DNA from: a virus
Taxonomy: Duplodnaviria > Heunggongvirae > Uroviricota > Caudoviricetes
DNA length: 43,862 bases
IMG/VR virus record: IMGVR_UViG_2541047828_000009
Span: 1-43,862 of that record
Strand: one strand, 5' to 3'
Numbering within the stretch: the first letter of the stretch is position 1; every line of letters starts with the position of its first letter. This document shows positions 2,835 to 9,883 of this stretch, in pieces. Below the pieces are notes generated by a model. That model was not told the origin of the DNA. It worked only from the letters and a program-made list of their open reading frames with translations, and ran no database searches. The position numbers were made by a program, and so were the translations under genes.

Positions 2835-5800
2835 TTATGCCTGAGTACGCAGCGCTTCAAGGCGGCGCAGGTCGAAGTCGTTCAGTTCGTCGGTGTAGTC
2901 AGCAGTGATTGGCGCTGGCCATTCACCTGTGTCGAATCCGGTTGCGATATTGCGCATCGCTTTGCGGTACTCGAGCATACCCAGCTCCAGTAGTTCAGCG
3001 GATGCCTCGATGATGGCGATCCAGTGGTAGTTCTCGTCTTTGTTGACGAAAATCCAGAAGAACTGATCCAGCGCTGCGGTTTCGCAGTACATAGCCGCGC
3101 TCAGGTGATAATCACGTTCAATAATTTCCCGGTGTAGCCTGGCGCGCAGGCTTTCCTGCTTAACATTCCACATGCTGATGGTTTTCAGGTCAGCACCGAT
3201 ACGCACGCCGTCTAGGTCGATCTCAAGGTCAGGGCGCACACGAACTTCCAGTCCCGTCTCCTCGTCAAAGCCAAAGTAGCTCACCTCAACGGCGCGGCTC
3301 GGGTGGGTTAGCAGCATGCCTGCGGTCGGGTGCGAGAGCAGTGCTGACTGAATTGCCTGCGCGGTGGCAAGTTGCTGGTGGGTAACCAGCACTTTCCCTT
3401 CCGGGTTGTTGCGCCACGCATCGAGCAGCTCGTCGGCGAACACTGCATCTGGTTTGACTGCCTTCACGGCCTGAATCAGATCGGCCTTCGTGCCAGAGAC
3501 TTTCAGCGGTTGCAGCTTCTGAGCTTCCTGCGCGACCAGGTCAGGATTGATAATCGCAAGTTGTTCGAGTAGTGCGTCGCGGCTGCCGCTGGTTTTAATC
3601 TGCGCTGGCAGGGTGGCGTTGTACTCTTTGATGCACGCCTTCATTGCTGTTGCTGTCTTCTTCTGATCTGCATCGATACGTTGGAATTCAGCTGGCAGCG
3701 CCATATAGTTCTGCGCCGTTTCATCCAGGCTAGCGCCCAGCGGCACCAGCGCTGGCAGGGTGGCGTTGTATTCATCCAGCAAAGCTTTGATATCGTCTGC
3801 GCTCAGTTGCGCTGGCAGGCTGGCGTTGTACTCATCAATAAACGCGCGGATCGTTGCCGTGGTGGTAAATGCACCTTCCGGAATTACGGGTTCAACGCTA
3901 AATTCTTCATCGAGCTGTTCTGGCTGCAACGCCAGCGCATGTACCAGGTTTCCCATGTCCAGCACTGAGGAGCGCTCTTTGACGATGGTTTTCTCAACGT
4001 GGCGCGCATTGAAGTACATCAGCGAAACGCGCGCATCTTTTACCTGGGTGGAACTGATGCCGTTGGCAGCGTGGTAAACCTCGTTCGGCAGACCTTCATA
4101 GCGGCCAGGTTCGAAGTAAGCAGGGTACACAACACCCGGTTCGTCAGATTGAGCTTCTGGCTCGGTTTGGGCCGCAACCGGTTCGGTTTGGTTTACAGAA
4201 TCGCTGTTTTGGCTAACAGAATCCGCATTCTGGCTCACATCGGCTTGCTGGCCGGTATGTGACTCTTCACCAGTTTCCAGACTGCTTTCGCCTGACTGCA
4301 CTTCATCACCAGCCTGTTCTTCATCACTGACAGTTTCTTCCATCTGCACATTGCTGGTGGTTTCCTCATTAAGTGGTGAACGGTTATCTGTTTGTGTTTG
4401 TTGATCGCCCATCAGGCCATCAATGGAGAATACGCCGTTGCCCATGTTGGCGATTTGTGGCTGTTTAGCAGCTGTTTTCTGCTCTGCAGCGACCTGCTCA
4501 TTAACCTCATTTTCCCAGCTGACGTCCGGCGCATGACCAGCATCAGCCAGCGTTTCTTCTGAGGGGTTTGAGTGGTCATTTTCGGTTAGATTGGCATTGA
4601 TATATGCCCGCAACCGCCCAGGAAAGTTAACCAATTCTGATGATGTGCCGCGGATGAGTGCAAAGATGGCGGCGCGTGAATAGTCCAGGATGCCAGCGGT
4701 TTTGCGCAGCGCCTCAGACCATTCGCTGAACGGACTTTCTTTCTTGCTGACAATCTCTTTAGCGCGACGGTAGACCCCACCAGGTATGTCGTAGATATTG
4801 AAATCCATTGGCAAGGTGGCCAGCGCAATTTCAACATCCAAAGTGTCCAGTGTGTGGACATAGTCGGTATTACGATCGGTCTTATTTCCACCGCCAGCAT
4901 TGGTTTTGACGTCAGTACGTTGAATCTGCGCAACGCGGTTACCTTTCTGCCATTCCTTGACCAGCAGGCCACGGTCGATGTAATCAGTGTTGAACCACAC
5001 AGTCAGGAACTGGATAACTGTTGCCAGCTCCGGTTTTTTACCGTCGACAGGGAAGACTTTCTTAACAGCATTCACGACTTTATGAATATCGTGCTCAATG
5101 GCTTTTTTGAATGCTTCCACATTCTCAGCAGCCAGCAGCAGGTTCTGGATGTACGTGTCATCAGTGTCCATCTCAAGGCGGACAATCTCGTTTTTCTGCC
5201 CAGCGTCGATGTGATAGAGATATTCACCATCACCGATGAACTGAGCCAGTACGCGCTGACGGAATGGCAGGGTGGCTACGACGATCAGGTTCGGCTGATC
5301 TGGCTGCTGAGATTGTTCTTCGGTACCGACTTCATCACCAACGCTGGTGGTTTCAGTTTTGAGCAGAGGAAACCTTCCACTGCGCCAGTCTTCAACCAGT
5401 TGATTGCGATCACCTGCTTCTGCGTTCACCCAGTCAGACATGAAAGCAGCGATCACTTCAGGTCCATGCTCTTCACCCTGTTCGAAGATGTCTTTAATCG
5501 CCTGAATCATTTTCCACTCAGCATTAAGACTGAGTTCGCCAACTTCAGGAACATCATTTTTAACCTGCAGCAAGTTCTGGAGATAGGTATTGCTTTCGTC
5601 CAGTGACATTTCGCTGGCAGCCAGCTGCTGCTCTTTAGTGACGTGAGTCTGGTACTTATCGCTCATCAGATGGAAGGCAAAACGGACTGCTGGAGTGCGG
5701 TTTTCTAACGATACATTCTCGTCAGAAGTCGCTACTTCATCTGTATTTTTTACATCGGCAGGGATAGTGGTGACAACGTCGCCAGCGGCCTTTGGCAGCC

Positions 5801-6065
5801 AGGTGCGCCCGTCGTCCTGCAGTTCGTAACGATCACACCAGGTGAAATCAACTTCACCTTCTTCCGGCAGGTCGTCATATACCGGGAAATCGGTGCGGAT
5901 TGGTTTGGCATAATCTTTACCGCGGCCAGTTTCTTCAATTCCGGCTTCTTCCAGTGCCACATCGAGTTGGAGATTGGCGCGCGCTACACTTTTCGCAGTG
6001 AACCAAATCACTGCATCTTTCTTGCCAGACTTCTGACTGGCTTTTATCAGATGGAAAAATTCCAT
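2835..6065 (-). CDS. recE: Exodeoxyribonuclease VIII-like (RecE-type) large exonuclease, 1076 aa
   Basis: Start taken at ATG 6065 (MEFFHL, AAGAGGA RBS), not the longer track ORF; C-terminal nuclease-like domain; paired with recT as in Rac-type prophages; internal acidic linker and triple EYNA[ST]LPA repeat. Confidence 0.7.
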   Translation of the reverse strand: MEFFHLIKASQKSGKKDAVIWFTAKSVARANLQLDVALEEAGIEETGRGKDYAKPIRTDFPVYDDLPEEGEVDFTWCDRYELQDDGRTWLPKAAGDVVTTIPADVKNTDEVATSDENVSLENRTPAVRFAFHLMSDKYQTHVTKEQQLAASEMSLDESNTYLQNLLQVKNDVPEVGELSLNAEWKMIQAIKDIFEQGEEHGPEVIAAFMSDWVNAEAGDRNQLVEDWRSGRFPLLKTETTSVGDEVGTEEQSQQPDQPNLIVVATLPFRQRVLAQFIGDGEYLYHIDAGQKNEIVRLEMDTDDTYIQNLLLAAENVEAFKKAIEHDIHKVVNAVKKVFPVDGKKPELATVIQFLTVWFNTDYIDRGLLVKEWQKGNRVAQIQRTDVKTNAGGGNKTDRNTDYVHTLDTLDVEIALATLPMDFNIYDIPGGVYRRAKEIVSKKESPFSEWSEALRKTAGILDYSRAAIFALIRGTSSELVNFPGRLRAYINANLTENDHSNPSEETLADAGHAPDVSWENEVNEQVAAEQKTAAKQPQIANMGNGVFSIDGLMGDQQTQTDNRSPLNEETTSNVQMEETVSDEEQAGDEVQSGESSLETGEESHTGQQADVSQNADSVSQNSDSVNQTEPVAAQTEPEAQSDEPGVVYPAYFEPGRYEGLPNEVYHAANGISSTQVKDARVSLMYFNARHVEKTIVKERSSVLDMGNLVHALALQPEQLDEEFSVEPVIPEGAFTTTATIRAFIDEYNASLPAQLSADDIKALLDEYNATLPALVPLGASLDETAQNYMALPAEFQRIDADQKKTATAMKACIKEYNATLPAQIKTSGSRDALLEQLAIINPDLVAQEAQKLQPLKVSGTKADLIQAVKAVKPDAVFADELLDAWRNNPEGKVLVTHQQLATAQAIQSALLSHPTAGMLLTHPSRAVEVSYFGFDEETGLEVRVRPDLEIDLDGVRIGADLKTISMWNVKQESLRARLHREIIERDYHLSAAMYCETAALDQFFWIFVNKDENYHWIAIIEASAELLELGMLEYRKAMRNIATGFDTGEWPAPITADYTDELNDFDLRRLEALRTQA
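3600..3835. repeat. Three copies of a ~25-bp intragenic repeat GCGCTGGCAGG[GC]TGGCGTTGTA[CT]TC inside recE
   Basis: Copies at about 3603, 3749 and 3809; each encodes the peptide EYNA[ST]LPA on the minus strand. Confidence 0.8.
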
Positions 6066-6203
6066 GTGAGATCCTCTTTTTTGAGTGTTAGAATCCCCGG
6101 GCCAGAGATAGCGCCCATTGGATGTTTTTTGGTTTGGTATAAATTCCGGTGTAACTTTGGTCGGTGGCACCGGACGTGAATCCCGCCTTGCGCGGGGTTT
6201 TCG

Positions 6204-6365
6204 TTATGCTTCGTGGGCCATCTGGTCGAACGAAGCGCAACGTACTGAACAGTAATCACGTTGCTCGCGTTTCAACTGCGTGCCGTGGATAAAGAGCAGT
6301 TCGTTTTTAACTTCCTTCCCTTGCTTGATCGGCTTGCGGCAGTACGCGCATTTTTTCTCCTGCAT
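6204..6365 (-). CDS. Small zinc-ribbon protein (53 aa), possibly YdaE-like
   Basis: Hand translation MQEKKCAYCRKPIKQGKEVKNELLFIHGTQLKREQRDYCSVRCASFDQMAHEA with CxxC and CxxxC pairs; GGAG 9 nt upstream; below the 60-aa track cutoff. Confidence 0.45.
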   Translation of the reverse strand: MQEKKCAYCRKPIKQGKEVKNELLFIHGTQLKREQRDYCSVRCASFDQMAHEA

Positions 6366-6376
6366 AACTCACTCCG

Positions 6377-6583
6377 TTAATGGCTAAGGCCATGTCCTAA
6401 ACCGTTTAGATAAACCTCAACCAGCAAATCTTTGGTGTAGGTACGTTCGATGCCACGGTGAAGATACAGGCGACCGCGTGCGTTAGCAGATGCGGTCCAG
6501 GTTGAGTCTTTGTGTTTTACAAGCATCCCCGGCTGAACTGCGCCGCGGTTTACTGTCTGTGTACCGTAGTGCTGATGAACCAT
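6377..6583 (-). CDS. Kil-like small early protein (68 aa)
   Basis: ATG at 6583 with GGAG RBS; the track ORF extending to 6727 begins with TTG; positional analogy to kil of Rac/lambda; sequence identity not verified. Confidence 0.4.
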   Translation of the reverse strand: MVHQHYGTQTVNRGAVQPGMLVKHKDSTWTASANARGRLYLHRGIERTYTKDLLVEVYLNGLGHGLSH

Positions 6584-6835
6584 GATGTTCTCCACTATTG
6601 CTGAGTGAACTTCGCTGGTGGTGCCGTGACGCTGATCTTCACAGTTGAGCGTTTTAACTCTGCAATTCACCACCGCGAAGCTCACTTCTGTGTTTGCCCT
6701 TGTCGCCAGGCTGGCGGAACGTTTCAAACCTACTGCGCGTTAATATCACCACCTCATTCCGGTTTTCGTATGCCCCGGACGGCTACTTCGTGGGCTCCAT
6801 GCCTGGGTGGTTCGTGGTGCGTCTTGGTGATTGCA

Positions 6836-6864
6836 TATTAAGCCTGAGACTTAAATCATGTCAA
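6836..6864 (-). promoter_or_regulatory. pL-like early-left promoter
   Basis: On the minus strand TTGACA, 17-nt spacer, TTAATA; an operator palindrome overlaps the spacer and -10. Confidence 0.5.
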
Positions 6865-6901
6865 GCTCCAGGCGAAATGTGATTGTAAGTTTCAGGCTTA
6901 A
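6838..6901. promoter_or_regulatory. Left operator cluster (OL-like): two 17-bp TTAAG-N7-CTTAA palindromes
   Basis: ttaagcctgagacttaa (6838-6854) and gtaagtttcaggcttaa (6885-6901); the same motif recurs at the right operator. Confidence 0.7.
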
Positions 6902-7005
6902 TCGTGATGTTCACCGAATTGCAGGCAAAAAAAATCCCGACGCTAAGGTCGAGATCGGGGACTTCGTGGCTGGGTGTTGGCGGCTGAGATGGTGGGTGAG
7001 GGTGT

Positions 7006-7034
7006 AAAAAACCGGCGCTGTGGCCGGGTTTTTT
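7006..7034. terminator. Bidirectional rho-independent terminator
   Basis: aaaaaa-CCGGC-gctgtg-GCCGG-gtttttt; A-run on one side and T-run on the other; sits just past the end of the immunity cargo operon. Confidence 0.7.
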
Positions 7035-7036
7035 CA

Positions 7037-7141
7037 TTACTGCTGGTTAAATCCTTTCGGCGAGTGCTGCTGTTCTTTATTACCAAATTTTTGATTTACA
7101 ATGATTTTATAAGCGTTATTGAGAGCTTGCTTTATAGACAT
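7037..7141 (-). CDS. Small ORF (34 aa) downstream of the AT-rich cargo gene
   Basis: Hand translation MSIKQALNNAYKIIVNQKFGNKEQQHSPKGFNQQ; strong AAGGAG RBS 6 nt before the ATG; 17 nt after the stop of the 434-aa gene; followed by the terminator. Confidence 0.4.
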   Translation of the reverse strand: MSIKQALNNAYKIIVNQKFGNKEQQHSPKGFNQQ

Positions 7142-7158
7142 TAATATCTCCTTATGTG

Positions 7159-8463
7159 TTATTGACGATTAAAGTAGTTAGAGTTTAGCTCTTTAGGGAA
7201 GTAGTGTTTACGATTTACCCAAACAAATCCATCAACTTTTGATATCACAGCGACATCAACAGGCCCACCGACAGTTTCATAATCATGTGATACTTTTCTT
7301 TTGAATGCAGTGATGTTCACTAATGATTCGGCCATATACGCAAGATCTGCCTTCCCAAGTGATTGCAACATCGATATCATTTTATTTGTATGGTTATTAA
7401 CAATATAGCTTTCAAGTTTAGTATCGTGATCTTGTAAAAGTACGTTTTTGAGTTCCTCAATTTCACTGGAGAAGTGATTGGCTAGTACTCCATTGTTCAT
7501 TGCAGGGAAAATATTGCTAGAAACATAATGATTAAGCCGATCAAAAACTTCCTCTGTAAGAGTTCTGTTAAAATTAATGATGTTAGGGTTGCACCCATCA
7601 ATGAAAGTTACTACTTCATCTTCTTGAGCAAATGGTATAACAAACCCCATATTGGTTACCTCATTATGGGATTTATCATCAATATTATGGATCATCAATT
7701 TGTTTTTAAAAATGCCGTAGATATGAAGAGTGCAAATGGAAGGGTAATATTCTTCCTCTCCATAACCTGTTATAACAATCCCTGAATATGTACGACTAGC
7801 ATGGACTTTGAAAATTAAACAAGTGGAATATAATATGACTTTTTCCATAAGCTCTTGCTGTATATTTTCACAGTTATCAAGAACAATAATTGATGAAATG
7901 TATGGCGATATTAAATCTTGTATATATGCTAAAGCATCATTAAACTCTTCTGTATCAAACCCTTCGAAAAAGAGATTATTCCTTAAGATTCCTATCTCTA
8001 AATCAAAGGCTTGCTTAACTATGTTTTGAAAAATAACATTGTCGAGTTCAACGGCGGGGTTCATTGTTAAATAGTTTACTACATTATTATCATTAATGTA
8101 TCTCATCAAACCTTTGAGGTTATCAACAACAAGGTTTATAACGCAAGCCTCTCTCATTTCATTTGTTATAAGGTCTGAGTTACCATTGATGAATTTTACA
8201 AAGTCATTAACATATTCTTTAATGGTAGGGAAACTAGTTTTCCCCAATTGTTTTCTATAGGATTTAATTATAAGTTCCCACGGTGCGCCACCCAGTGTCG
8301 CATTATTATAAATCATGATCCCCACGGGATGGTGTTTAGATAGTTCGAATAGTTTTTCCGCACTATTATTTATTTTTACTAATCTATTATGCTCTGTGGT
8401 GACTGCAGAGTCAGCAGCAAGGGCGATTCCAGTATTATTTATTACAACAATCTCAGCTGTCAT
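7159..8463 (-). CDS. AT-rich hypothetical protein (434 aa), candidate superinfection-exclusion or abortive-infection factor
   Basis: Start chosen at ATG 8463 (MTAEIVVINNTGIALAADSAVT); an in-frame ATGATG at 8562 would give the 467-aa track ORF; codon usage conspicuously AT-rich versus flanks; co-oriented immediately downstream of the repressor. Confidence 0.7.
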   Translation of the reverse strand: MTAEIVVINNTGIALAADSAVTTEHNRLVKINNSAEKLFELSKHHPVGIMIYNNATLGGAPWELIIKSYRKQLGKTSFPTIKEYVNDFVKFINGNSDLITNEMREACVINLVVDNLKGLMRYINDNNVVNYLTMNPAVELDNVIFQNIVKQAFDLEIGILRNNLFFEGFDTEEFNDALAYIQDLISPYISSIIVLDNCENIQQELMEKVILYSTCLIFKVHASRTYSGIVITGYGEEEYYPSICTLHIYGIFKNKLMIHNIDDKSHNEVTNMGFVIPFAQEDEVVTFIDGCNPNIINFNRTLTEEVFDRLNHYVSSNIFPAMNNGVLANHFSSEIEELKNVLLQDHDTKLESYIVNNHTNKMISMLQSLGKADLAYMAESLVNITAFKRKVSHDYETVGGPVDVAVISKVDGFVWVNRKHYFPKELNSNYFNRQ

Positions 8464-8604
8464 TGCAAAACATCCCGTGTAGTAGTGATAAATATTAATT
8501 AAATTGATAGTTTTTTTCAATCTAACATAAATGGCGGAATCACCCCCCAGTAAAGACATCATTGTCTCATGGGAACTAAAAATTCAGGACAAACCTAAAG
8601 CGAT

Positions 8605-8991
8605 TCAGTCCCCCTGCGAGCGAATCCGCCCCTTCATGTACTTCTCATACAGCTCATCCAGTTCCTTAAGACGTATCGAAAAGATGCGGAGCATGTTCTG
8701 TTGCTCTTCTTCTGGCAGCTGGCGGTAGAGCTCAAGCAGGCGCTGTTCGTCCGGCTTAAGTCCGTCCTTCTCGCCGACATCCTCACCGAGTAACCAAGGC
8801 ACAGACACGCCAGCTGCGTCAGCGACAGCGAGAGCTGATTTCTTGCTGATCACGCCTTTTTTAAACCAGCCGTTCACAGACTGCGGGGTTACCCCAGCAA
8901 CCCTGGCCATATCGGATTTGGTCATACCGCGCCCGTTCAGCTCTGAAAGGCGTTCGACAAGTATCGGATTAAGTACGGTTTTCTCTTTCAT
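8605..8991 (-). CDS. Prophage repressor, XRE-type HTH (cI functional analogue), 128 aa
   Basis: HTH segment MTKSDMARVAGVTPQSVNGWFKKG; divergent from the cro-like gene across an operator cluster; no SD before the ATG (leaderless-like, as for lambda cI from pRM); no C-terminal S24 peptidase domain. Confidence 0.8.
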   Translation of the reverse strand: MKEKTVLNPILVERLSELNGRGMTKSDMARVAGVTPQSVNGWFKKGVISKKSALAVADAAGVSVPWLLGEDVGEKDGLKPDEQRLLELYRQLPEEEQQNMLRIFSIRLKELDELYEKYMKGRIRSQGD

Positions 8992-9001
8992 GGTTAGAAG
9001 A

Positions 9002-9067
9002 ATAAGCCTTTTGCTTAAACTTGAAAATTCGCCTCAGGCTTGACAATAAATTAAGTCTCAGGCTTAA
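9002..9067. promoter_or_regulatory. Right operator cluster (OR-like): three TTAAG-N7-CTTAA-type sites
   Basis: ataagccttttgcttaa (9002-9018), weaker ttcgcctcaggcttgac (9028-9044), ttaagtctcaggcttaa (9051-9067). Confidence 0.7.
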
Positions 9068-9068
9068 T
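9040..9068 (+). promoter_or_regulatory. pR-like early-right promoter
   Basis: Perfect -35 TTGACA at 9040-9045, 17/18-nt spacer containing an operator site, -10-like CTTAAT/TTAATT. Confidence 0.55.
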
Positions 9069-9095
9069 TTGATTGTATTCAAATCGGAGACAACG

Positions 9096-9314
9096 ATGAA
9101 CGGGTTAACGAAAGCCATTAAGTCCGCTGGCACTGCAACAAATCTCGCAACCATGCTGGGCATCAAGCCGATGTCGGTCAGCCGCTGGAAAAACCGGTAC
9201 CAGGGCGTGGTGCCTGCTGATCGGGTCCTTCAAATCTACGCGGCTACCGGCGTAACTCCACACGAGCTGCGCCCTGATCTCTATCCAAATCCCACTGACG
9301 GATTACCAAAGTAG
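9096..9314 (+). CDS. Cro/YdaS-like HTH regulator (72 aa)
   Basis: ATG 9096 with GGAGA 5 nt upstream; HTH segment TATNLATMLGIKPMSVSRWKNR; divergent from the repressor. Confidence 0.7.
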   Translation: MNGLTKAIKSAGTATNLATMLGIKPMSVSRWKNRYQGVVPADRVLQIYAATGVTPHELRPDLYPNPTDGLPK

Positions 9315-9325
9315 GAGCACTGACA

Positions 9326-9883
9326 ATGCAAACACTTTCTTTTCAACAGAATAACAGAGCGCCATCAGAGCACCTGAAATTCCAGTATCAACACAGTGAG
9401 GCTGAAGGCCAGCCGGTCGATCACCGGGCTATCTGTTCTGCCGTCCGCGCCTGGGCGGCGGCAGAGGGCCGCGTGGCGGTCGCTCTGGCGATTAAAGAGG
9501 CTGCCGAACAGGCCGAGCTTGACAGCATTGACATGACCGGCAGCGCCGATGTGTGGAACGTGAAGCTGTTTCGCTGGCTGGACAACCACGAGAAATCACC
9601 GGCCTACCGGGCGAACGTCGAGCAGCTGGCGCCGGTAATAATTTCGGTTCTGCCGCTGGCGTACCGGGATCGCGTGATTAAGCACGACTGCTTTGCGGTT
9701 CGTGTCGCCAGGTCGGTGAAAGAAGACGCTGAGGCGATACAGGCTGTCGTCCTCAAAGCCCCCAGACACGAACGGATGAAGGAAATCAGCGAGAGCATCG
9801 TAGCTAAGCTCTACCTGGACGGACCTGATTCTGTGGCGCCCATTATGGCGATGGTTACAACGATGCTGGGTGGTGCGCTATGA
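9326..9883 (+). CDS. YdaT-like protein (putative cII-type early regulator)
   Basis: 185 aa, AGGAG RBS; position directly after the cro-like gene; family assignment from memory only. Confidence 0.4.
   Translation: MQTLSFQQNNRAPSEHLKFQYQHSEAEGQPVDHRAICSAVRAWAAAEGRVAVALAIKEAAEQAELDSIDMTGSADVWNVKLFRWLDNHEKSPAYRANVEQLAPVIISVLPLAYRDRVIKHDCFAVRVARSVKEDAEAIQAVVLKAPRHERMKEISESIVAKLYLDGPDSVAPIMAMVTTMLGGAL

What the first reader, a model, noticed from the sequence alone, without database searches (positions are those of the whole stretch)
7159..8463. Cargo protein N-terminus resembles an N-terminal-nucleophile (HslV/proteasome-like) start
After the initiator Met the protein begins Thr-Ala-Glu-Ile-Val-Val-Ile-Asn-Asn-Thr-Gly-Ile-Ala-Leu-Ala-Ala-Asp-Ser-Ala-Val-Thr. 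By eye this parallels the HslV/proteasome beta N-terminus (Thr1 nucleophile, beta-strand, AxDxxxT). If real it suggests a protease-like effector. The start codon is also ambiguous (8463 versus 8562), and which one is used decides whether Thr is exposed. This is a weak, pattern-level resemblance.
Basis: inference. Interest (0 to 1): 0.5.

Follow-up and report, generated by a model that had tools for sequence, protein, structure and literature searches.

The report
Proteasome-like threonine hydrolase in a prophage
The prophage cargo gene really does encode a distant relative of the proteasome/HslV protease whose catalytic threonine sits right after the start methionine, and it travels with a previously unannotated mini-gene as a mobile two-gene cassette of unknown, possibly anti-phage, function.

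Summary

The start is 8463, not 8562. 68 of 79 related loci have no upstream in-frame start, and nearly all homologues begin Met-Thr. RefSeq's 467-aa call is therefore too long.

The family is huge (more than 6,000 clusters at 50% identity) and is annotated only as 'hypothetical'. It fits the 'PMI' proteasome homologues with multiple insertions (probably PMI-4) described computationally in 2021, which have no known function.

Two things are new here. A small ORF (window 7037-7141, 34 aa) follows the gene almost everywhere. The cassette also sits in prophage cargo sites (here next to the repressor), in satellites, and beside restriction genes. A defence or toxin-antitoxin-like role is inferred, not shown.

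The parts
7159..8463 (-). Coding sequence of the 434-aa proteasome-like Ntn hydrolase (stop codon 7159-7161). This is the supported gene model.
   Evidence: ORF and translation. phrog_5990 profile positions 1-427 match residues 1-434. Homologues are 416-440 aa and start MTAE. Fold.
8458..8463 (-). Start codon ATG (8463-8461) and the Thr2 codon ACA (8460-8458). Thr2 is the predicted N-terminal nucleophile once the initiator Met is removed.
   Evidence: Sequence. Thr2 is T in 78 and S in 2 of 80. It aligns with Thr1 of the Thermoplasma proteasome beta subunit.
8410..8412 (-). Asp18 codon, the equivalent of proteasome Asp/Glu17.
   Evidence: Invariant 80/80. Aligned to Glu17 of 1pma_B.
8353..8355 (-). 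Lys37 codon (motif E/N-K-L-F), the equivalent of proteasome Lys33 (K-L-F in Thermoplasma). Lys30 (8374-8376) is also nearly invariant.
   Evidence: K37 is 80/80 and K30 is 79/80. The alignment pairs NKLF with KKLF.
7804..8175 (-). Helical insertion 1 (about residues 97-220, four helices), placed after core helices H1/H2. Its sequence is poorly conserved.
   Evidence: Secondary structure of the model. Variable columns in A1. Removing it is needed for a significant sequence match to the proteasome: versus 74.
7360..7587 (-). Helical insertion 2 (about residues 293-368, a long helical hairpin), between core helices H3 and H4.
7249..7272 (-). The invariant motif V-G-G-P-V-D-V-A (residues 398-405), which corresponds to S-G-G-M-I-D-V-A of the archaeal proteasome beta subunit.
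   Evidence: Invariant 80/80. Aligned.
8464..8562 (-). In-frame upstream extension (33 codons) included in the RefSeq 467-aa model. It is most likely untranslated leader. It contains a sigma-70-like promoter match (-35 TTGAAA at 8520-8515, -10 TAATAT at 8497-8492).
   Evidence: No homologue conserves the extension. 68 of 79 loci have no upstream in-frame start. In-frame stops lie 1-12 codons upstream in 9 of 9 close loci. The promoter match is consensus only and lies in AT-rich DNA.
7037..7141 (-). Unannotated 34-aa ORF (MSIKQALNNAYKIIVNQKFGNKEQQHSPKGFNQQ). It starts 17 nt after the stop of the large gene and has the Shine-Dalgarno sequence AAGGAG at 7148-7153. It is the proposed partner mini-protein.
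   Evidence: Same-frame orthologues exist in Klebsiella, Serratia, Rahnella and Pantoea, with many synonymous changes. A small downstream ORF is present in 72 of 85 loci versus 29% of controls, and in 80 of 80 viral loci.
7005..7027 (-). Intrinsic terminator (stem CCGGCCACAGCGCCGG followed by a T-run) that closes the two-gene cassette. It reads as a terminator on both strands.
   Evidence: Equivalent terminators follow the small ORF in related loci.
8605..8991 (-). Upstream helix-turn-helix repressor-like gene on the same strand. No terminator-like site lies between its stop (8605) and the cassette's start (8463), so the cassette occupies the position that rexAB holds in lambda.
   Evidence: The 70%-identical Klebsiella homologue also lies directly downstream of a cI-type (HTH_3 + Peptidase_S24) repressor.

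Best explanation
Gene 7159-8463 (-) encodes a 434-aa member of the proteasome-like branch of the N-terminal-nucleophile hydrolases. Translation starts at ATG 8463. Methionine aminopeptidase is expected to remove Met1 because Thr is a permitted second residue, as in E. coli HslV. That would leave Thr as residue 1, with its free amino group and side-chain hydroxyl forming the nucleophile. Asp18 and Lys37 complete a proteasome-type Thr/Asp/Lys triad. Two large helical insertions are grafted on the core, one after H1/H2 and one between H3 and H4. This matches the 'proteasome homologue with multiple insertions' architecture (most likely PMI-4 of Fuchs, Alva and Lupas 2021). The insertions probably provide substrate selection or regulation instead of a closed proteasome barrel. 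The gene forms a self-contained, low-GC, horizontally mobile cassette with a 34-aa mini-protein (7037-7141) and a terminator. The mini-protein gene abuts or overlaps the large gene's stop codon in most related loci. It probably binds the enzyme as an inhibitor (antitoxin), a specificity factor or a dedicated substrate. In this Rac-like E. coli prophage the cassette sits just downstream of the repressor, in the position of lambda rexAB, and is probably expressed in the lysogen. Its most likely role is a prophage-borne conflict function (phage exclusion, abortive infection or addiction) carried out by site-specific proteolysis. What is shown: the sequence, the start site, the fold homology, the conservation of the triad, the conserved gene pair and the mobile contexts. 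What is inferred: Met removal, catalytic activity, binding of the mini-protein, expression in the lysogen and the defence role. Rough sub-confidences: homology and start 0.95; active Thr hydrolase 0.7; mini-protein as a functional partner 0.65; defence or conflict role 0.4.

For: Sequence: the core-only profile A3 hits the Thermoplasma proteasome beta subunit at E 4.5e-4 among 177,635 PDB sequences, pairing Thr2 with Thr1, Asp18 with Glu17, Lys37 with Lys33 and VGGPIDVAVISKgDG with SGGMIDVAVITRKDG. 6 of 33 core-only members hit Pfam PF00227 Proteasome, best E 6.7e-5. The triad is invariant.

Start.

Family size and spread: 6,102 clusters at 50% identity with E <= 1e-3; many bacterial phyla plus archaea; 222 viral contigs.

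Cassette: GC 0.31-0.36 against about 0.50 in the flanks. A small ORF lies downstream in 72 of 85 loci versus 29% of controls. An HMM of the commonest small-protein type hits only that downstream position among 12,418 ORFs. 80 of 80 viral loci have such an ORF, 76 of them with a Shine-Dalgarno match and most followed by a terminator-like hairpin. The window-type mini-ORF is conserved in frame, with synonymous:nonsynonymous changes of 7:6 and 11:11.

Context: Rac-like prophage. Homologues lie next to cI, between Q and the holin gene on the opposite strand, beside lysis genes, in Streptococcus satellites, and directly downstream of type I/III/IIG restriction genes in unrelated taxa. No other conserved neighbour was found.

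Literature: the PMI families, their insertion sites and their distribution are described in PMC8665760.
Against: There is no experimental evidence for catalysis, Met removal or any phenotype. The full-length protein matches no Pfam, NCBIfam or PADLOC model, and PADLOC's defence-candidate models do not include it. Counterparts of proteasome Ser129, Asp166 and Ser169 are not evident: the aligned positions read P-F-A-Q and E-T-V-G-G. The Gly47 equivalent is Asn in this protein, so the active site is not a full copy of the proteasome's. Many non-phage loci have ordinary housekeeping neighbours, so the defence-island association is only moderate and was not quantified against a background. The window's 34-aa ORF is not detected by the HMM of the main small-protein family. 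A profile search with the small protein found no fusion to the large protein. Membership in PMI-4 specifically could not be checked against the published representative sequence.
Confidence: 0.7

Rival explanations
1. The enzyme and the mini-protein are a dedicated enzyme-substrate pair. Like the monomeric proteasome homologue connectase, the Thr1 enzyme would cut or ligate its small partner at the conserved aromatic-Pro motif. This could activate a peptide or tag a target, rather than the peptide acting as an inhibitor.
Against: The protein keeps helices H1/H2, which connectase lacks, and it lacks connectase's S3/S4 insertion. No processing site has been demonstrated. In the window's own peptide the Pro is replaced by Gly.
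Confidence: 0.15
2. The cassette serves the phage or mobile element itself rather than defending the host. It could be a toxin-antitoxin addiction module that stabilises the element, a protease that tunes lysogeny or induction, or a counter-defence protease that destroys host immune proteins.
For: It lies next to the repressor in two different phage backbones. It is present in sequenced phages and satellites. The layout of a small gene coupled to an enzyme gene resembles toxin-antitoxin pairs. Zeta-toxin and Fic/Doc neighbours occur.
Against: The same cassette also occurs between Q and the holin gene, beside lysis genes, next to restriction systems, and in genomes with no phage genes nearby. 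That argues against a role tied to one phage's regulatory circuit. Nothing distinguishes addiction from defence at the sequence level.
Confidence: 0.25
3. The protein is a catalytically dead scaffold, like proteasome alpha subunits, that has kept only the fold.
For: Equivalents of Ser129, Asp166 and Ser169 are not recognisable, and Gly47 is not conserved in this subfamily. The large insertions suggest a binding role.
Against: The start position is fixed so that Thr (or rarely Ser, the only alternative seen) directly follows Met. Asp18, Lys37 and Lys30 are invariant or nearly so across bacteria and archaea. That pattern is expected for a working N-terminal nucleophile and is not seen in alpha subunits, which carry N-terminal extensions (PMC8665760).
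Confidence: 0.08
4. Translation starts at 8562 or 8559, and the 33 extra residues act as a propeptide that is removed autocatalytically, as in proteasome beta subunits.
For: The ORF is open back to 8562, and RefSeq and many GenBank records annotate 466-467 aa. Proteasome beta subunits do use propeptides.
Against: No homologue conserves the extension. 68 of 79 loci cannot encode one, and close relatives have in-frame stops 1-12 codons upstream. The residue before Thr is Met, not the Gly typical of autoprocessing sites. A promoter-like site lies inside the extension. Fuchs et al. report propeptides only in proteasome beta and HslV.
Confidence: 0.04
5. The resemblance is a chance similarity at the N-terminus and the protein is unrelated to Ntn hydrolases.
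For: The full-length sequence gives no significant Pfam or PDB sequence hit. hhalign against E. coli HslV gives a probability of 0.4%.
Confidence: 0.01

Closest known systems
PMI-type proteasome homologues ('Proteasome homolog with Multiple Insertions', most likely PMI-4) of Fuchs, Alva and Lupas, Bioinformatics 2021 (PMC8665760)
   Same: Both have a proteasome-like core with the Thr1/Asp17/Lys33 triad and no propeptide. Both carry a long insertion after H1/H2 and a second one between H3 and H4. Both are found in most bacterial phyla, some archaea and phages. PMI-4 is the largest of the new groups. None has a known function.
   Different: Identity with the published PMI-4 representative (HDY66466.1) could not be checked because its sequence is not held. 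The paper reports no conserved genomic context, whereas here a small co-oriented ORF follows the gene in most loci, and prophage cargo sites and restriction-gene neighbourhoods recur.
20S proteasome beta subunit (archaeal PsmB, e.g. Thermoplasma acidophilum 1PMA chain B; Pfam PF00227, MEROPS T1)
   Same: This is the best structural and sequence match. Thr1, Asp/Glu17, Thr21 and Lys33 align, and the C-terminal motif xGGxIDVAVIxxxDG is almost identical.
   Different: The window protein has about 200 extra residues in two helical insertions and no propeptide. Ser129, Asp166 and Ser169 equivalents are not evident. There is no alpha subunit and no AAA+ partner nearby. Assembly into a barrel is unknown and may be prevented by the insertions.
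HslV (ClpQ), the bacterial proteasome-like protease
   Same: Both have the Ntn fold. In both, Thr directly follows the initiator Met, so Met removal exposes the nucleophile. The N-terminal pattern T-x-(beta-strand)-(A/G)D-x-x-x-T is shared.
Connectase (Methanocaldococcus/Methanosarcina), a monomeric proteasome homologue that is a sequence-specific protein ligase
   Different: Connectase lacks H1/H2 and has its signature insertion between S3 and S4. It is restricted to methanogens, and its substrate gene is not an adjacent mini-ORF.
Prophage cargo next to the repressor, such as lambda rexAB and the BstA abortive-infection protein (PMC8585504, abstract only; its position next to the repressor is recalled from memory)
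   Same: The cargo sits immediately downstream of the prophage repressor, where lysogen-expressed exclusion genes are found. The lambda rexAB arrangement is established knowledge.
   Different: There is no sequence or fold relationship. No exclusion phenotype has been tested for this cassette.

Membership tests
Proteasome-like Ntn hydrolases (MEROPS family T1 / Pfam PF00227 superfamily) | Four-layer alpha-beta-beta-alpha Ntn fold of proteasome subunits | tested here: met
Proteasome-like Ntn hydrolases (MEROPS family T1 / Pfam PF00227 superfamily) | Thr (or Ser) as the first residue of the mature chain | tested here: met
   At the sequence level, Thr directly follows the forced start Met and aligns with Thr1. 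Actual Met removal in vivo cannot be tested with these tools.
Proteasome-like Ntn hydrolases (MEROPS family T1 / Pfam PF00227 superfamily) | Asp/Glu17 and Lys33 complete the catalytic triad | tested here: met
   Asp18 and Lys37 are 80/80 invariant and align to Glu17 and Lys33 of 1pma_B.
Proteasome-like Ntn hydrolases (MEROPS family T1 / Pfam PF00227 superfamily) | Gly47 oxyanion hole plus Ser129/Asp166/Ser169 support residues | tested here: inconclusive
   HMMER treats Gly47 as an insertion. The nearby position is Gly in most homologues but Asn in the window protein. The aligned segments read PFAQ and ETVGGP rather than GSG and DSxSGG.
Proteasome-like Ntn hydrolases (MEROPS family T1 / Pfam PF00227 superfamily) | Significant match to the family's sequence model | tested here: inconclusive
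   The full-length protein has no Pfam hit. With the insertions removed, 6 of 33 members hit PF00227 (best E 6.7e-5), and the profile hits the archaeal beta subunit at E 4.5e-4.
Proteasome-like Ntn hydrolases (MEROPS family T1 / Pfam PF00227 superfamily) | Self-compartmentalising ring assembly | not testable with these tools
   Only monomer prediction was available. Fuchs et al. argue that insertions at these sites may prevent rings.
PMI-4 (Fuchs et al. 2021) | Long insertion after helices H1/H2 and a second insertion between H3 and H4, with no propeptide | tested here: met
   Model helices 101-218 follow H1 (62-73) and H2 (81-94). Helices 293-368 lie between H3 (282-289) and H4 (371-392).
PMI-4 (Fuchs et al. 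2021) | Broad distribution: Proteobacteria, Firmicutes, Actinobacteria, Bacteroidetes, PVC, Cyanobacteria, Euryarchaeota and phages | tested here: met
   Loci come from all these groups, and from phages and viral contigs. Compare Table 1 of the paper.
PMI-4 (Fuchs et al. 2021) | Sequence clustering with the published representative HDY66466.1 | not testable with these tools
   The sequence is not in the paper's text or the held supplement. PMI-3 has the same insertion sites and cannot be formally excluded.
HslV | Compact protein of about 175 aa, significant sequence similarity to HslV, and an adjacent hslU AAA+ gene | tested here: not met
   The protein is 434 aa with two insertions. No AAA+ gene is in the cassette and no neighbour is conserved.
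Connectase | Lacks H1/H2 and has a two-helix insertion between S3 and S4 | tested here: not met
Known anti-phage defence systems (PADLOC-DB 2.0) | Match to a model of a known or candidate defence protein | tested here: not met
   0 families at E <= 10.
Type II toxin-antitoxin-like or two-gene conflict cassette | Two co-oriented genes that abut or overlap, one of them small, moving together between genomes | tested here: met
   In many loci the small ORF's start overlaps the stop codon of the large gene.
Type II toxin-antitoxin-like or two-gene conflict cassette | Toxicity of one partner that is neutralised by the other | not testable with these tools
   This requires expression experiments.

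The most novel reading that the evidence does not exclude
The two-gene cassette is a new kind of mobile immune or conflict system whose effector is a proteasome-family threonine hydrolase (or connectase-like ligase). The effector would be controlled by, or would act on, a co-translated mini-protein. This would be the first biological role for the large, uncharacterised PMI branch of proteasome homologues and, as far as the searched literature shows, the first threonine-protease effector in phage defence.
Probability: 0.3. Interest if true: 0.8.

Novelty: new member of a known kind. Interest (0 to 1): 0.6.

Why it matters
A family of more than 6,000 sequence clusters, found from E. coli prophages to archaea, is still labelled 'hypothetical protein', and in E. 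coli RefSeq it carries a start codon that hides its catalytic threonine. Recognising it as a proteasome-type N-terminal-nucleophile enzyme gives direct handles for experiments: a Thr2Ala mutant, proteasome activity probes and inhibitors. Finding that it almost always travels with an unannotated mini-gene, and that it sits in prophage cargo slots and beside restriction systems, turns a purely computational family with no known context into a testable two-component system in a tractable host. If it proves to be a defence or addiction module, it would add proteasome-like chemistry to the set of bacterial conflict systems.

Tried and rejected
Direct family scans of the full-length protein gave nothing useful. 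Pfam returned only noise with E > 0.05, NCBIfam returned none and PADLOC returned none. PHROGs gave phrog_5990, 'unknown function'. phmmer against PDB sequences found nothing. The full-length profile against the PDB gave only non-significant hits, E about 0.9.

hhalign of the full-length alignment against the Thermoplasma beta subunit recovered only the C-terminal motif (probability 47%). Against E. coli HslV it recovered nothing significant. The Thermoplasma one agrees with the fragments printed.

The afdb50 fold library was not available. Megablast of the region against phage genomes found only a repressor fragment.

I looked for a third conserved gene and found none among 283 nearest neighbours. 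I looked for natural fusions of the mini-protein to the enzyme and found none; there were only 18 stand-alone hits.

The HMM of the main mini-protein family does not detect the window's 34-aa ORF. Its status therefore rests on position, the Shine-Dalgarno sequence, the terminator and conservation in five enterobacterial genera.

Literature searches for any link between proteasome-like, Ntn or threonine proteases and phage defence found nothing relevant.

Modelling the enzyme-peptide complex was not attempted.

An Rfam scan of 5800-9600 gave only one sub-threshold hit.
Full report
**1. The observation**

The minus strand carries an ORF from 8562 to 7159 (467 aa). The region from 7100 to 8600 has 31-36% G+C against about 50% on both sides, so the gene is foreign cargo.

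Comparison with a complete E. coli genome shows that the window is a Rac-like lambdoid prophage. It has an integrase next to kch, RecE/RecT, YdaS/YdaT and replication O/P-like genes. The gene lies directly downstream of, and on the same strand as, a helix-turn-helix repressor-like gene (8605-8991). That is the position rexAB occupies in lambda. RefSeq calls the gene a 467-aa 'hypothetical protein'. Only 15 of 5,426 complete E. coli genomes carry it.

**2. Which start codon**

The evidence points clearly to 8463.
- A PHROG profile (phrog_5990, unknown function) aligns position 1 to residue 1 of the 434-aa form.
- The 120 closest database relatives are 416-440 aa long and almost all begin MTAEI. 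The few with extensions have unrelated extensions.
- Of 143 representatives of 50%-identity clusters, 134 begin MT and four begin V/L-T from GTG or TTG starts.
- In 68 of 79 loci from across bacteria and archaea, the longest possible ORF starts exactly at the Met-Thr codons.
- In nine of nine close relatives an in-frame stop lies 1-12 codons upstream.
- A sigma-70-like promoter match (TTGAAA, 17 nt, TAATAT, at 8520-8492) lies inside the supposed extension. This is weak evidence because the DNA is AT-rich.

**3. What the protein is**

Full-length searches are uninformative. There is no Pfam, NCBIfam or PADLOC match and no PDB sequence match. The full-length profile gives only non-significant hits, but those hits are all to the Thermoplasma proteasome beta subunit.

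To obtain sequence evidence independent of the model, I cut the two insertions out of 33 diverse homologues (A3). This core profile hits the Thermoplasma beta subunit at E = 4.5e-4 among 177,635 PDB sequences, in two collinear stretches:
- Thr2 pairs with Thr1.
- Asp18 pairs with Glu17.
- Thr22 pairs with Thr21.
- Lys37 (in NKLF) pairs with Lys33 (in KKLF).
- VGGPIDVAVISKgDG pairs with SGGMIDVAVITRKDG.

Six of the 33 core-only sequences also hit Pfam PF00227 'Proteasome' (best E 6.7e-5).

Across 80 sequences from many phyla, Thr2 is T in 78 and S in 2. Asp18 and Lys37 are invariant, and Lys30 is 79/80. Thr and Ser are exactly the residues an N-terminal nucleophile allows.

Proteasome Ser129, Asp166 and Ser169 have no obvious counterparts, and the Gly47 position is Asn in this protein. 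The active site is therefore related to the proteasome's but not identical.

**4. Relation to what is known**

Fuchs, Alva and Lupas (2021, PMC8665760) described 22 new groups of proteasome homologues by iterative searches. Their PMI groups ('proteasome homolog with multiple insertions') have no propeptide. PMI-3 and PMI-4 carry long insertions after H1/H2 and between H3 and H4. PMI-4 is the largest new group and is found in most bacterial phyla, Euryarchaeota and phages.

The window protein has exactly these insertion sites and this distribution, so it is most probably a PMI-4 member. I could not compare it with the published representative because that sequence is not held.

The authors state that they found no genomic context suggestive of function. 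I found no later paper assigning one. I also found no paper linking Ntn or threonine proteases to phage defence.

**5. A conserved mini-gene**

Seventeen bases after the stop codon there is a strong Shine-Dalgarno sequence (AAGGAG, 7148-7153). It precedes an unannotated 34-codon ORF (7141-7037, MSIKQALNNAYKIIVNQKFGNKEQQHSPKGFNQQ), which is followed at once by an intrinsic terminator (7027-7005).

The same arrangement recurs widely:
- In 72 of 85 loci a 30-100-aa ORF starts within -40 to +60 nt of the stop codon on the same strand, and it often overlaps the stop. The figure is 29% for other long ORFs in the same loci.
- All 80 viral loci examined have such an ORF. 76 have a Shine-Dalgarno match and most are followed by a terminator-like hairpin.
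- The small proteins fall into related families that track the clade of the large protein. The commonest family has a basic N-terminus, the motif [S/T]xx[EQ][FWY]x[KR]x[YF][FLY]P with a nearly invariant Pro, and an amphipathic C-terminal helix.
- An HMM of that family hits only the ORF immediately downstream of the large gene among 12,418 ORFs in the loci. Most of those hits were in the training set, so this mainly shows specificity.
- The window's peptide belongs to an enterobacterial subtype (M[ST]hxQxhxNAYKxhxxxKF[GP], 34-37 aa). It is found in Klebsiella, Serratia, Rahnella, Pantoea and many viral contigs. It is always open in the same frame, and synonymous changes are as common as non-synonymous ones (7:6 and 11:11).

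No third gene is conserved. A profile search found no fusion of the mini-protein to the enzyme.

**6. Context and likely role**

In enterobacteria the cassette occupies several classic prophage cargo slots:
- downstream of the repressor, in this window and again in the 70%-identical Klebsiella homologue behind a cI-type repressor;
- between the Q antiterminator and the holin gene on the opposite strand, in Enterobacter, Serratia and Providencia phage;
- beside lysis genes, in Klebsiella and Stenotrophomonas phage.

It is also found in Streptococcus phage satellites. In unrelated bacteria it lies 35-58 nt downstream of type I, type III or type IIG restriction genes. It also occurs near methyltransferases, DUF4145, DUF488, Fic, Zeta toxin, integrases and a relaxase. 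Many other neighbours are ordinary housekeeping genes.

This is the pattern of a mobile accessory cassette with a moderate association with defence and conflict islands. The association was not measured against a background.

My best explanation is as follows. The product is an active Thr1 hydrolase whose helical insertions select a specific substrate. The mini-protein gene abuts or overlaps the enzyme gene in most loci, and the mini-protein binds the enzyme as an inhibitor, adaptor or substrate. The cassette is expressed with the repressor in the lysogen, because no terminator-like site lies between the repressor's stop codon and the cassette. It would serve phage exclusion, abortive infection or addiction. 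The enzymology and the biology are inference. The homology, the start site and the gene pair are shown.

**7. Verdict**

The protein is a new, mis-annotated member of a computationally known but experimentally untouched family. The added value here is the corrected start, the explicit mapping of the catalytic residues, the conserved mini-gene and the recurring prophage, satellite and restriction-system contexts. I score interest at 0.6. It is a good and tractable lead into an unexplored enzyme family, but its function is unproven and the family itself has already been published.

Noticed in passing
window 7037-7141 (-), SD at 7148-7153, terminator at 7005-7027: An unannotated 34-aa ORF lies directly after the Ntn-like gene, with a strong Shine-Dalgarno sequence and an intrinsic terminator after it. 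Equivalent mini-ORFs of 34-87 aa follow the homologous gene in most loci from bacteria, archaea, phages and satellites. The published survey of the family reported no conserved context.
   Followed up: yes
window 8464-8562 (-); RefSeq WP_225104017.1 in L085: RefSeq and many GenBank records annotate the protein 32-33 residues too long (466 or 467 aa), which hides the catalytic Thr behind a non-conserved extension. The 434-aa form is also in the databases.
   Followed up: yes
L099 about 5891-5915, L005 about 5891-5915, L091 about 7933-7957 (roughly 45-110 nt upstream of the start codon): A shared palindrome-containing motif, TTTGCGTACGCGT(T/G)A, lies upstream of the cassette in Serratia, Rahnella and Enterobacter. 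A related ACGCGTAACCAGC occurs in Pantoea loci L101 and L110. It is absent from the window, whose upstream region instead shares TGATTCCGC with the Klebsiella cI-adjacent locus L096. It could be an operator or promoter element, or part of the phage backbone.
   Followed up: no
L082 and L084 (Ferruginibacter / Chitinophagales), start of the large gene: Two Bacteroidota homologues begin Met-Ser instead of Met-Thr. This is the only substitution seen at position 2 in 80 sequences, which fits a nucleophile role. The Bacteroidota clade (MTAVVGILNK...) also has its own mini-protein family (…MSxEEISEIVSEKIIxxVKEQFE…).
   Followed up: partly
window 6107-6202 (+): A sub-threshold Rfam match to the Hfq-binding sRNA isrB (30.4 bits against a gathering score of 35, E 0.009) overlaps the 5' end of the RecE-like ORF.
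   Followed up: no
window 6584-7036: About 450 nt between the cassette's terminator and the next annotated gene (a hypothetical protein at 6377-6583, then YdaE at 6204-6365) have no annotated gene. The stretch contains a second terminator-like hairpin on the minus strand (6956-6933). In Rac this region holds kilR and sieB.
   Followed up: no
L051 2790-5945, L070 3252-5963, L076 1894-5940, L007 75-2480, L021 164-3487: In five unrelated genomes a type I, type III or type IIG restriction or modification gene is among the two nearest upstream neighbours of the cassette, on the same strand. In three of them (L051, L070, L076) it ends only 35-58 nt upstream of the cassette, as if the cassette were embedded in the restriction operon. 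In L007 a 150-aa ORF lies between them and in L021 the gap is about 2.5 kb. One of these genes (L007) also carries a Fic domain.
   Followed up: partly
L024, L049, L056, L058: Four of the 80 genome loci carry a large gene broken by a frameshift or premature stop. These could be assembly errors in metagenome bins or genuine inactivation of a costly gene.
   Followed up: no
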